Of a stretch of DNA of 64,000 nucleotides, positions 62,564 through 62,889 are shown piece by piece. The DNA is from Candidatus Nomurabacteria bacterium RIFCSPHIGHO2_12_FULL_42_19 (lineage in GTDB: Bacteria; Patescibacteriota; Minisyncoccia; Phycocordibacterales; UBA9973): positions 4,457 through 68,456 of the forward strand of contig MFUM01000004.1 in assembly GCA_001786955.1 (NCBI GenBank), given 5' to 3'. A program made the translations under genes and the position numbers. The notes under the pieces were generated by a model. The model was given only the letters and a program-made list of their open reading frames with translations. It ran no database searches and had not been told where the DNA came from. Each line of letters opens with the position of its first letter. Positions within the stretch are counted from its first letter, which is position 1.

Positions 62564-62800
62564 AATTTTTTATAATAACATAAGGGAGTATAGCAAAAAA
62601 AATGGAAAAATAGCATTAATATGCTAGAGTAATTACGTAATTGATTACGTAATTAATTACATAAAGGAGCCGTGTCTATGAAATATAAACTGCTTTATAT
62701 TTCATCTGTTTCGCCAAAGCGAATAGGATTATGCGCCAAAGGCGCAATCCTAAGGGAAGAGCCCGAGAGGGCGCGAAGACACGTGACTGAACGAAGTAAA

Positions 62801-62889
62801 GGAGCCGTGTCTGAGCGGTCTAAGGTACATCTTTGCTAAAGATGCAGGGGCTTTATACCCCCTCGCGAGTTCGAATCTCGCCGGCTCCG
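62801..62889 (+). tRNA. tRNA-Ser (anticodon GCT), type II
   Basis: Acceptor GGAGCCG/CGGCTCC, G73, anticodon stem catct/agatg with loop ttGCTaa, long variable arm caggggc-ttta-taccccctcg, T-arm gcgag-ttcgaat-ctcgc. Confidence 0.8.

What the first reader, a model, noticed from the sequence alone, without database searches (positions are those of the whole stretch)
62631..62811. 15-nt direct repeat of the tRNA-Ser(GCT) 5' end flanking a ~120-nt insert, plus tandem AATTACGTAATT palindromes
aaaggagccgtgtct occurs at 62663-62677 and again at 62797-62811, where it is the 4 nt upstream plus the first 11 nt of the tRNA. Between them lies a ~119-nt segment with its own hairpin (ggattatgcgcc-aaa-ggcgcaatcc) and an inverted match agacacgtg. 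Immediately upstream are two 12-bp palindromes aattacgtaatt (62631-62665). This looks like a remnant att-site duplication, or a miniature element inserted into the tRNA 5' end, with an operator-like palindrome pair beside it.
Basis: seen in the sequence. Interest (0 to 1): 0.55.

Follow-up and report, generated by a model that had tools for sequence, protein, structure and literature searches.

The report
Structured decoy-antisense leader on tRNA-Ser
The repeat is real and marks a previously undescribed, conserved ~135-nt folded RNA cassette in front of a serine tRNA gene. The cassette carries a copy of the tRNA's first 12 bases and an antisense to its first 17, so it can probably decide whether the tRNA folds correctly.

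Summary
An exact 16-nt repeat (62662-62677 and 62797-62812) brackets 119 nt directly upstream of tRNA-Ser(GCU).

It is not an att scar or a chance duplication. Homologous copies sit at exactly the same position, after tRNA nt 12, in at least 8 other distinct sequences. All come from Candidatus Nomurabacteria/Paceibacterota (CPR) genomes and metagenomes. Most copies lie before tRNA-Ser(GCU); two lie before the neighbouring tRNA-Ser(ACU), where the repeat and its internal complement are retuned to that tRNA.

The copies share a five-way-junction fold: 97% of cells are paired and 13 pairs show compensatory changes. The G·U pattern places the RNA on the tRNA strand. No Rfam family, phage or plasmid matches it.

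Most relatives have an "empty" site, with the same promoter ~10-25 nt from the tRNA. These include a strain with an identical neighbouring gene.

The closing helix P1 uses the tRNA-5' copy (the decoy). The partner strand of P1 is also complementary to nt 1-17 of the real tRNA. In nearest-neighbour folding that second pairing wins in 8 of 8 homologues.

My best reading is a cis-acting bistable leader that gates tRNA-Ser(AGY) maturation. A selfish site-specific cassette is the main rival.

The "operator" palindromes are a lineage-specific triplication of a conserved promoter-proximal motif.

The parts
62602..62630 (+). Promoter-like block for the leader and tRNA transcript: ATGGAAAAAT, a 16-nt spacer, an extended -10-like TGcTAGAGT (-35-like TGGAAA at 62603-62608; TAGAGT at 62625-62630).
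   Evidence: The same block (ATGGAAAAAT-N6-8-AATATGyTArAGT-AATTAAGT) precedes tRNA-Ser(GCU), or the element, in more than 20 loci. The simple sigma-70 scan did not flag it (8 of 12 matches), so its role as a promoter is inferred from conservation and position only.
62630..62665 (+). 12-nt tandem repeat with three copies (TAATTACGTAAT / TGATTACGTAAT / TAATTACATAAA). It is a lineage-specific expansion of the conserved TAATTAAGT motif at the start of the transcript.
   Evidence: (D2, D8, I3-I4). It is absent from L010 and from every other species, which carry one TAATTAAGT-like copy. It is present in the 99-100% identical contigs L001-L007.
62666..62677 (+). DR1, the 'decoy': a copy of tRNA-Ser(GCU) nt 1-12 (acceptor 5' strand, nt 8-9 and D-stem 5' strand). 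It is the 5' strand of helix P1. The exact repeat extends 4 nt further upstream, to 62662.
   Evidence: The same 12-nt copy occurs in all homologues. Single C>U or G>A changes in L013, L030 and L031 keep the pairing.
62678..62705 (+). H1: a perfect 12-bp A/U-rich hairpin (ATGAAATATAAA-CTGC-TTTATATTTCAT), almost invariant in sequence across the family.
   Evidence: I5. In one search, helix 2 has 11 of 12 pairs invariant and one A-U to G-C double change (L024).
62710..62723 (+). H2 hairpin (TTCGC-CAAA-GCGAA).
   Evidence: In one search, helix 3 has 4 of 6 pairs with compensatory changes and 100% pairing.
62726..62750 (+). H3: a two-part hairpin with a 2-nt bulge (GGATT-AT-GCGCC-AAA-GGCGC-AATCC).
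   Evidence: In one search, helix 4 has 4 pairs with double changes. The outer stem reads GGAUU/AAUCC, GGC/GCC, GGGC/GCCC, AAGC/GCUU or AAGUUC/GAACUU in different members.
62751..62776 (+). Conserved purine-rich junction strand TAAGGGAAGA, then H4 (GCCC-GAGA-GGGC, 62761-62772), then junction GCGA.
   Evidence: Junction residues are near-invariant in alignments A2/A4. In one search, H4 is helix 5, with 2 of 4 pairs compensatory. The loop is GNRA-like.
62772..62788 (+). 'Anti' segment CGCGAAGACACGTGACT. Its AGACACG (62777-62783) is the 3' strand of P1, pairing with DR1. The whole segment is also complementary to nt ~1-17 of the real tRNA, with tandem G.A mismatches.
   Evidence: I10; pairing table for 8 homologues; helix 1: 95% paired, 2 pairs with double changes, many G.U pairs. 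The segment covaries with the tRNA type, ACACGG for GCU and ACACGC for ACU.
62784..62800 (+). Purine-rich linker (TGACTGAACGAAGTAAA) between 'anti' and the tRNA.
   Evidence: Conserved as GACUGAAYRAARUGAA in most GCU-type members. It forms the loop of the alternative hairpin.
62801..62890 (+). tRNA-Ser(GCU). Its first 12 nt are DR2.
   Evidence: ARAGORN; Rfam tRNA model, 45.4 bits.
62475..62563 (-). Divergently transcribed tRNA-Ser(ACU), the second AGY reader. Here it has no element. In L024 and L033 this tRNA carries the element instead.

Best explanation
Window 62666-62800 is one member of an undescribed family of ~135-nt structured RNAs. The family is built into the 5' leader of AGY-reading tRNA-Ser genes (anticodons GCU or ACU) in Candidatus Nomurabacteria/Paceibacterota. 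The element is transcribed with the tRNA from the normal tRNA promoter.

Shown: the RNA starts with a copy of tRNA nt 1-12 (the decoy). That copy pairs with an internal 'anti' segment to form helix P1. P1 closes a five-way junction with hairpins H1-H4 and conserved junction strands.

Shown: the same 'anti' segment is complementary to nt ~1-17 of the real tRNA, which lies only ~12-16 nt downstream. Two mutually exclusive folds therefore exist. In state A, P1 forms with the decoy and the tRNA folds as a normal cloverleaf, giving an ordinary RNase P substrate. In state B, 'anti' forms a local hairpin with the real tRNA 5' strand, and the decoy is free to occupy the acceptor 3' strand. The genuine 5' end and D-arm are then sequestered.

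Inferred: the element works in cis as a gate on maturation of this tRNA-Ser. The folded junction, alone or stabilised by an unknown ligand, protein or condition, holds 'anti' on the decoy and lets the tRNA mature. Otherwise the precursor is trapped. The second AGY-reading tRNA-Ser next door provides a constitutive back-up.

Inferred: the cassette behaves as an accessory unit. It is gained by recombination, and it can be lost by recombination between its own 12-nt repeats.
For: Family and position. Homologues lie immediately upstream of tRNA-Ser(GCU) in L013, L016, L029, L030, L031, L034 and L036, and upstream of tRNA-Ser(ACU) in L024 and L033. In every case the element follows a copy of that tRNA's nt 1-12.

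Structure. RNAalifold predicts 42 pairs, 12 of them compensatory. On the model-based alignment, 97.4% of cells are paired against 34-48% when partners are slid. 13 pairs have double changes, and 0 of 500 shuffles reach the observed covariation score.

Strand. There are many G.U pairs in P1 and H3. The decoy's substitutions (L030 C6U, L031 C5U) stay paired as U.G.

Constraint. The element is 77-94% identical among GCU-type members, while 70-100-nt flanks are ~45-74% identical.

Two states. 'Anti' pairs with tRNA nt 4-17, and mostly 1-17, in all 8 members. The position opposite tRNA nt 16 changes G to A where the tRNA has U instead of C. State B is the MFE in 8 of 8 members and lies 0.8-10 kcal/mol below state A. 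In prefix folding P1 forms first and is replaced once the real 5' end is transcribed.

Not coding. The AUG-led ORF is broken or frameshifted in L013, L016 and L024 (translated by eye from the sequences).

Redundancy. Where both tRNAs are visible (window, L030, L024, L033), only one of the two carries the element.
Against: No expression, processing or ligand data exist. Energies come from a nearest-neighbour model that ignores tRNA and junction tertiary structure. State A may therefore simply always win, with no switching.

The pairing that extends beyond the duplicated 12 nt is short: 3 Watson-Crick pairs plus a tandem G.A. Its one covariation is a single evolutionary event.

The distribution is sporadic: roughly 4 of 15 species with the same tRNA 5' end, and none of 5 further RecG-neighbour sequence types that carry the tRNA pair. 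Decayed remnants occur in L020 and L034. Element similarity does not track tRNA-allele similarity: the L016 and L013 tRNAs are 99% identical but their elements only 77%, while the L031 and L013 tRNAs are 82% identical and their elements 93%. All of this fits a selfish or accessory cassette as well as, or better than, a core regulator.

In ACU-type copies, decoy nt 10-11 match the tRNA although they do not pair with 'anti'. Pairing alone does not explain that identity.
Confidence: 0.4

Rival explanations
1. The element is a selfish, protein-free, site-specific cassette. It inserts into, or is recombined into, AGY tRNA-Ser genes at nt 12/13. It carries a replacement copy of nt 1-12 so the tRNA stays intact, as integrative elements do for tRNA 3' ends. 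The 'anti' segment is a guide that recognises the uninterrupted target (nt 1-17 spans the insertion point). Helix P1 merely insulates the tRNA from that guide. The host gains no regulatory benefit.
For: The distribution is sporadic, and the conserved 'empty' divergent tRNA pair looks ancestral. Two different target tRNAs each carry their own exact 12-nt repeat, while 'anti' is only partly adapted to the ACU target: L033 keeps AGACAC and L024 has AUACAC. Element and tRNA-allele similarities are incongruent, and L036 is a chimera of the L031 flank and the L030 element. Remnants occur in L020 and L034. The same leader hosts a LAGLIDADG ORF in L040 and L041. 'Anti' is complementary across the 12/13 junction of an intact tRNA.
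Against: There is one copy per locus and none elsewhere in the window. No transposase, integrase or reverse transcriptase is consistently linked. There are no hits in viral, phage or plasmid collections. All four hairpins and the junction strands are under strong purifying selection. Pure insulation would not need that, and decay or repeat-mediated deletion would be the easy way out. No known chemistry moves a 135-nt RNA or DNA this way.
Confidence: 0.3
2. The element is an independent small RNA gene that shares the tRNA's promoter. RNase P cleavage at the tRNA 5' end releases a stable ~150-nt five-way-junction RNA that acts in trans, for example as a protein-binding RNA or sponge. The resemblance of its P1 strand to the tRNA is a historical by-product.
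For: The fold is compact, strongly covarying and well predicted (z = -4.98). H1 is invariant in sequence, which suggests a specific binding partner. That sRNAs are known to be processed out of tRNA precursors rests on general knowledge and was not tested here.
Against: This reading does not explain three things: why P1's 5' strand equals tRNA nt 1-12 for two different tRNAs, why the linker is short and fixed, and why the element is never found away from tRNA-Ser.
Confidence: 0.15
3. One reading: a decayed attL/attR pair left by a larger integrated element, or a chance duplication, with an operator-like palindrome pair beside it.
For: A direct repeat of a tRNA segment flanks the foreign DNA. 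tRNA-Ser(GCU) is used as an integration site by a serine-recombinase element in L031, but at its 3' end.
Against: The 119 nt are conserved with compensatory base-pair changes across species. The size is identical (134-138 nt) in all members. There is no integrase nearby. The palindromes are absent from every other member and arise from a local 12-mer triplication.
Confidence: 0.03

Closest known systems
Riboswitch / attenuator expression platforms, and the synthetic 'RNase P riboswitch' (Ender et al. 2021, PMC7897497)
   Same: A structured 5' leader whose closing helix P1 shares a strand with an alternative pairing, and the choice decides the fate of the downstream RNA. In the synthetic device the controlled step is RNase P processing of a tRNA, which is the step proposed here.
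   Different: The RNase P riboswitch is engineered: it uses a theophylline aptamer and sequesters the single-stranded leader (abstract shown). Here the antisense targets the tRNA body (nt 1-17) and is neutralised by a tRNA-derived decoy. No ligand is known, and switching is inferred only from computed energies. I know of no natural riboswitch that controls a tRNA; this rests on my own knowledge plus the absence of any Rfam match.
Integrative elements in tRNA genes (att duplication)
   Same: A direct repeat of a tRNA segment brackets inserted DNA and the tRNA gene stays intact. Presence and absence vary among relatives.
   Different: The 5' end (nt 1-12) is duplicated rather than the 3' part. 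The insert is only 119 nt, has no integrase, and is itself a conserved RNA structure.
Group I introns in Patescibacteria tRNA genes (Nakagawa et al. 2026, PMC13011429)
   Same: The same phylum; a structured RNA inserted in tRNA genes; an internal segment that pairs with the sequence on both sides of the insertion point, like P1/P10 of an internal guide sequence.
   Different: Those introns sit in the anticodon loop (for example at position 35/36). From general knowledge, group I introns are about 200 nt or longer and match the Rfam group I intron model. This element is ~135 nt and sits at nt 12/13. It has a U-A rather than a U.G pair at the junction and no terminal G. It gives no Rfam hit. A complete tRNA lies downstream, so no splicing is needed.
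MITEs / small non-autonomous insertion elements with target-site duplication
   Same: Small size, flanking direct repeats, empty sites in relatives, decayed remnants.
   Different: Single copy, strictly one target, no terminal inverted repeats, a 12-nt 'duplication', and RNA-level covariation on the transcribed strand.

Membership tests
Any Rfam 15 RNA family (riboswitches, ribozymes, sRNAs, group I/II introns) | A covariance-model match to the element | tested here: not met
   cmscan at E<=10 on window 62300-63000, on L030 and L032, and on L024 480-760 returned only the tRNAs and noise outside the element.
tRNA-gene integrative element (att remnant) | An integrase or recombinase gene, or element-derived genes, adjacent to the repeat-bounded insert | tested here: not met
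   Neighbours in the window, L013, L016, L029 and L033 are housekeeping or unknown genes. The only recombinase seen (L031) abuts the tRNA 3' end, not the element.
tRNA-gene integrative element (att remnant) | The sequence between the repeats is unconstrained residue of a larger element | tested here: not met
   The size is 134-138 nt in all members, with 13 compensatory pairs and 77-94% identity against ~45-74% in the flanks.
MITE / insertion sequence | Multiple dispersed copies per genome and terminal inverted repeats | tested here: not met
   There is no second copy in the 64-kb window by blastn-short or covariance model. Every copy found in the collections lies at a tRNA-Ser 5' end. Whole genomes could not be scanned.
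Group I intron | A conserved P3-P9 core, a U.G pair at the 5' splice site, a terminal G, and interruption of the host gene | tested here: not met
   No RF00028 hit. The pair at the junction is U12-A in 9 of 9 sequences. The base before the downstream boundary is A or U. An intact tRNA follows.
Riboswitch (natural, ligand-binding) | A conserved multi-helix aptamer whose P1 strand overlaps an alternative pairing in the expression platform | tested here: met
   A five-way junction with near-invariant junction strands. The P1 3' strand is also complementary to tRNA nt 1-17. The alternative fold is the MFE in 8 of 8 members.
Riboswitch (natural, ligand-binding) | Specific ligand binding that shifts the fold and the output | not testable with these tools
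   This needs in-line probing or SHAPE with candidate ligands and RNase P assays.
Small self-cleaving ribozyme | Site-specific self-scission, or a match to a known class | tested here: inconclusive
   No Rfam ribozyme model matches. Manual comparison with the hammerhead core fails: CYGU varies at U4, and extra helices are present. A new class cannot be excluded without biochemistry.
Leader peptide / small ORF | A conserved reading frame | tested here: not met
   The 53-55-aa ORF in the window becomes 20 aa in L013, 14 aa in L016 and 20 aa in L024. The H1 double change alters two residues while keeping the hairpin (translated by eye from the sequences).
Operator / repressor site (the AATTACGTAATT palindromes) | Conservation of the palindrome at orthologous promoters | tested here: not met
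   The palindromes are absent from L010 and from all other species, which have a single TAATTAAGT-like motif. The 10-mer frequency in the window is at chance level.

The most novel reading that the evidence does not exclude
This is a natural RNA device of a kind not yet described. One reading is a ligand- or condition-sensing five-way-junction leader that switches a tRNA precursor between a processable and a trapped fold, using a tRNA-derived decoy and a cis-antisense; that would be the first natural 'riboswitch' acting on tRNA maturation. The other reading is a protein-free, RNA-guided cassette, possibly a new small ribozyme, that targets nt 12/13 of tRNA-Ser and carries its own repair copy of the tRNA 5' end.
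Probability: 0.3. Interest if true: 0.85.

Novelty: new variant of a known kind. Interest (0 to 1): 0.64.

Why it matters
Control of tRNA supply in bacteria is thought to act mainly at transcription and turnover. As far as I know, leader-encoded RNA switches are known for mRNAs, and for tRNAs only as synthetic designs. A conserved natural leader that carries both an antisense to its own tRNA and a decoy for that antisense would be a compact, directly testable example of RNA-only control of tRNA maturation. Alternatively it would be an example of RNA-guided, site-specific colonisation of a tRNA gene. It occurs in the CPR/Patescibacteria, organisms with tiny genomes and few protein regulators. 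It also adds a well-supported structured RNA family that could be submitted to Rfam: 10 sequences and 13 compensatory pairs. Annotators should note that a duplicated tRNA 5' end need not be an att scar.

Tried and rejected
1. Other copies in the window. blastn-short of 62621-62812 and covariance model R1 found none. One 17.7-bit hit at 32350-32486(-) lies inside a 320-aa ORF and has poor posterior probabilities, so I treat it as spurious.

2. Known RNA families. Four Rfam searches found nothing for the element.

3. Phage or plasmid origin. Three viral-contig pattern scans and blastn against phages and plasmids gave no match.

4. Small protein. An SD-like GGAG plus AUG opens a 53-55-aa ORF in the window, but the frame is not conserved (sequences).

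5. Hammerhead, hairpin-ribozyme or group I readings of the junction. Compared by eye, the core motifs do not fit.

6. T-box-like specifier. No conserved AGC or AGU is displayed in a loop.

7. Terminator role for H1. The stem is A/U only and followed by CYGUUU, so it is not terminator-like, and the scan did not call it.

8. Isogenic filled/empty pair. L010 shares an identical GIY-YIG gene and tRNA(ACU), but its spacer and its tRNA(GCU) allele differ. It is therefore an allele swap, not a clean excision footprint.

9. RecG-neighbour walk. This added loci from 7 further RecG homologues. Five of them carry the tRNA-Ser pair, all empty, and no new members were found. L013's own RecG was not among the listed homologues.

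10. Literature. Searches found no description of this element or of tRNA-Ser(ACU).

Full report
**1. The observation**

Window 62662-62677 and 62797-62812 are an exact 16-nt direct repeat, TAAAGGAGCCGTGTCT. ARAGORN and the Rfam tRNA model place tRNA-Ser(GCU) at 62801-62890. The second copy is therefore 4 leader nucleotides plus tRNA nt 1-12. These 12 nt are exactly the acceptor 5' strand (nt 1-7), nt 8-9 and the 5' strand of the 3-bp D-stem (read from the sequence and the alignment).

Between the copies lie 119 nt. It also contains a perfect 12-bp palindromic hairpin directly after the first repeat (62678-62705) and two further hairpins. Folded as RNA, 62662-62800 gives -49.5 kcal/mol, with z = -4.98 against dinucleotide shuffles.

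The "two palindromes" are part of a 12-nt tandem repeat with three copies (62630-62665).

A second serine tRNA, with the unusual anticodon ACU, is transcribed divergently at 62475-62563.

**2. Source and relatives**

The window is from a groundwater Candidatus Nomurabacteria MAG (GCA_001785625.1, contig MFUF01000012.1). Several contigs from other samples are 99-100% identical across the inter-tRNA region.

One contig (L010) has an identical GIY-YIG gene and an identical tRNA-Ser(ACU). In L010 the tRNA-Ser(GCU) follows the promoter region directly...gagtaattaaatcgtaaaaGGAGCCGTGTCTGAGTGG... It has no 135-nt block and only one copy of the 12-mer motif. This is an "empty site", but not an isogenic one. 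Identity drops in the spacer, and the GCU tRNA is a different allele.

**3. The insert is a conserved family**

I scanned one genome per GTDB species for the tRNA's 5' end. This gave 15 species.
- Ten or so have the empty arrangement.
- L013 and L016 have a homologous ~135-nt block at the same place.
- L020 has a decayed remnant: a decoy plus the first 11 nt of H1, then the tRNA.
- L024 has the block in front of the neighbouring tRNA-Ser(ACU) instead.

A metagenome scan with a pattern from hairpin H1, which does not depend on the tRNA, returned nine contigs. Every one lies at the 5' end of tRNA-Ser(GCU) or tRNA-Ser(ACU).

In all, there are 8 complete and 2 truncated distinct members. In every one the element begins right after a copy of the first 12 nt of the tRNA it precedes. 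That copy is GGAGCCGTGTCT for GCU and GGAGGCGTGGAT for ACU.

Loci from seven further relatives, reached through their RecG genes, gave no new members. Five of them carry the divergent GCU/ACU pair 80-90 nt apart, or ~1 kb apart in L040/L041, with no element. Two (L043/L044 and L050) show no tRNA-Ser at all. The empty state looks ancestral, and the element is sporadic.

**4. Structure**

Alignment and RNAalifold give a five-way junction:
- P1: decoy nt 4-12, usually 1-12 if a tandem G.A is allowed, paired with the "anti" segment.
- H1: 12 bp.
- H2: 6 bp.
- H3: two parts with a bulge.
- H4: 4 bp with a GNRA-like loop.

The joining strands are near-invariant: CYGU, (U/C)A, UAAGGGA(A)GA and RCGA.

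On the alignment refitted to covariance model R1, 97.4% of cells form pairs. This compares with 34-48% when partners are slid by 1-3 columns. 13 of 40 pairs show changes on both sides, and no shuffle reaches the observed covariation. The caveat is that the alignment was fitted to the model. However, the unfitted MAFFT alignment already gave 12 compensatory pairs.

G.U pairs are frequent in P1 and H3. The decoy's rare substitutions (C6U in L030, C5U in L031) remain paired as U.G. The selected structure is therefore on the tRNA's strand, that is, in the transcript.

H1 is different. Its sequence is almost frozen: 11 of 12 pairs are invariant, with one A-U to G-C double change. This suggests a sequence-specific partner.

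The AUG-led ORF that starts in H1 is not conserved (sequences).

**5. Constraint and population behaviour**

Among GCU-type members the element is 77-94% identical, similar to the tRNA bodies at 81-99%. The 70-100-nt flanks are only ~45-74% identical.

Element similarity does not follow tRNA-allele similarity.
- L016 and L013: tRNAs 99% identical, elements 77%.
- L031 and L013: tRNAs 82% identical, elements 93%.

L036 combines the flank of L031 with the element of L030. L034 carries an older remnant upstream of a full copy.

These features fit a cassette that is exchanged by recombination through the conserved promoter and tRNA 5' sequences. They also fit easy loss through its own 12-nt repeats.

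**6. The decoy and antisense arrangement**

The P1 3' strand and its neighbours (window 62772-62788, CGCGAAGACACGTGACT) are complementary to more than the decoy. They also match the real tRNA from nt ~1 to nt 17, which is 5 nt beyond the duplicated part, with tandem G.A mismatches. This holds in all eight members.

In the ACU-type copies the segment has changed to follow that tRNA: ACACGG becomes ACACGC(C). The base opposite tRNA nt 16 is A where the tRNA has U.

Because "anti" is only 12-16 nt from the tRNA, the local hairpin between "anti" and the real 5' end is favoured. The minimum-free-energy fold of the whole precursor in 8 of 8 members has this hairpin, with the decoy's nt 1-7 (3-7 in L013) pairing with the tRNA's 3' acceptor strand. 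The "correct" fold (P1 plus cloverleaf) lies 0.8-10 kcal/mol higher. In prefix folding, P1 forms first and is displaced once the real 5' end has emerged.

These are nearest-neighbour calculations without tertiary structure. They show that the leader is not neutral for tRNA folding. They do not show which state dominates in vivo.

**7. Interpretation**

What is shown:
- A conserved, transcribed-strand RNA structure.
- It is strictly linked to the 5' end of AGY-reading tRNA-Ser genes.
- It is built from a tRNA-derived decoy and a cis-antisense.
- It is sporadically distributed.

What I infer as most likely (about 0.4) is that it gates maturation of that tRNA. When the junction holds "anti" on the decoy, the tRNA folds and RNase P can cut at G62801. 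When it does not, the precursor is trapped. The adjacent second AGY tRNA-Ser, which is empty wherever both are visible, would keep decoding going.

The main rival (about 0.3) is a selfish, RNA-guided, site-specific cassette. Its "anti" would be a targeting guide across the nt 12/13 insertion point, and its P1 would only be insulation. Several observations favour it: the sporadic distribution, the two targets with exact repeats but a lagging "anti", the remnants, and a LAGLIDADG ORF occupying the same leader in L040/L041. Several count against it: strong selection on all helices, one copy per locus, no linked enzyme, and no viral or plasmid copies.

A trans-acting sRNA released by RNase P is possible (about 0.15), but it leaves the decoy and antisense logic unexplained.

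The att-remnant reading is contradicted.

**8. The palindromes**

Nearly all tRNA-Ser(GCU) genes of this group, filled or empty, are preceded by ATGGAAAAAT-N6-8-AATATGyTArAGT-AATTAAGT. This looks like a -35/extended -10 promoter followed by a conserved start region. That is an inference; the simple scan does not reach its threshold.

In the window lineage the TAATTAAGT region has become TAATTACGTAAT and is triplicated. The triplication is found only in this lineage. I see no evidence that it is an operator.

**9. Comparison with known systems and novelty**

- No Rfam 15 family matches.
- The closest mechanism is riboswitch or attenuator logic. The closest specific device is the synthetic RNase P riboswitch (PMC7897497).
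- The closest genomic pattern is a tRNA-gene att duplication.
- The closest relative by phylum is the group I introns of Patescibacteria tRNA genes (PMC13011429).

Defining features of the last two were tested and not met. I therefore class the element as a new variant of a known kind, a cis-acting structured leader with alternative pairing. There is a substantial chance that it is something categorically new.

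Noticed in passing
window 62475-62563 (-); also L014, L017, L019, L023-L027, L030, L037, L040, L042, L045-L049: A tRNA-Ser with anticodon ACU (A34) is conserved across this clade, almost always divergently paired 80-100 nt from tRNA-Ser(GCU). A34 in a two-codon box is unusual for bacteria, because inosine there would misread AGA. A literature search found no description.
   Followed up: partly
L040 and L041, 2180-3226 (-): A 348-aa ORF with HTH_3 and LAGLIDADG_3 domains sits between the tRNA-type promoter and tRNA-Ser(GCU). 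Its 3' end overlaps the first ~38 nt of the tRNA. A second, unrelated insertion therefore uses the same leader.
   Followed up: partly
L031 1306-2868 (-): A large serine recombinase (Resolvase + Recombinase + Zn_ribbon_recom) has a 3' end that overlaps the 3' part of tRNA-Ser(GCU). This suggests an integrated element using the same tRNA as an attachment site at its 3' end.
   Followed up: partly
window 62602-62638; upstream of tRNA-Ser(GCU) in L010, L013-L034: A conserved promoter-like block, ATGGAAAAAT-N6-8-AATATGyTArAGTAATTAAGT, lies ~5-20 nt before the tRNA or the element. The AATTAAGT part downstream of the -10-like box is as conserved as the boxes themselves.
   Followed up: partly
L019, L023, L037, L042, L043, L045-L047, L049, L050: A tRNA-Ile with anticodon UAU recurs a few kb from RecG in relatives. 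This anticodon is uncommon in bacteria.
   Followed up: no
L020 (minus strand, just upstream of the tRNA at 213-304) and L034 (minus strand, bases ~89-105): Decayed remnants of the element. L020 has GGGGCCGTGTCT + ATGAAATATAA fused to the intact tRNA. L034 has ...acatgtctatggaaa just upstream of a full copy. These indicate past internal deletions or tandem duplication.
   Followed up: partly
window 62801-62890: The whole-window Rfam run at gathering threshold listed three tRNAs but not tRNA-Ser(GCU). The same tRNA scores 45.4 bits (threshold 29) in the local run. This is presumably a filter effect.
   Followed up: no
window 62149-62391 (-): An 80-aa stand-alone GIY-YIG domain protein lies directly downstream of tRNA-Ser(ACU). 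It is identical in 15 contigs, including the empty-site strain L010.
   Followed up: no
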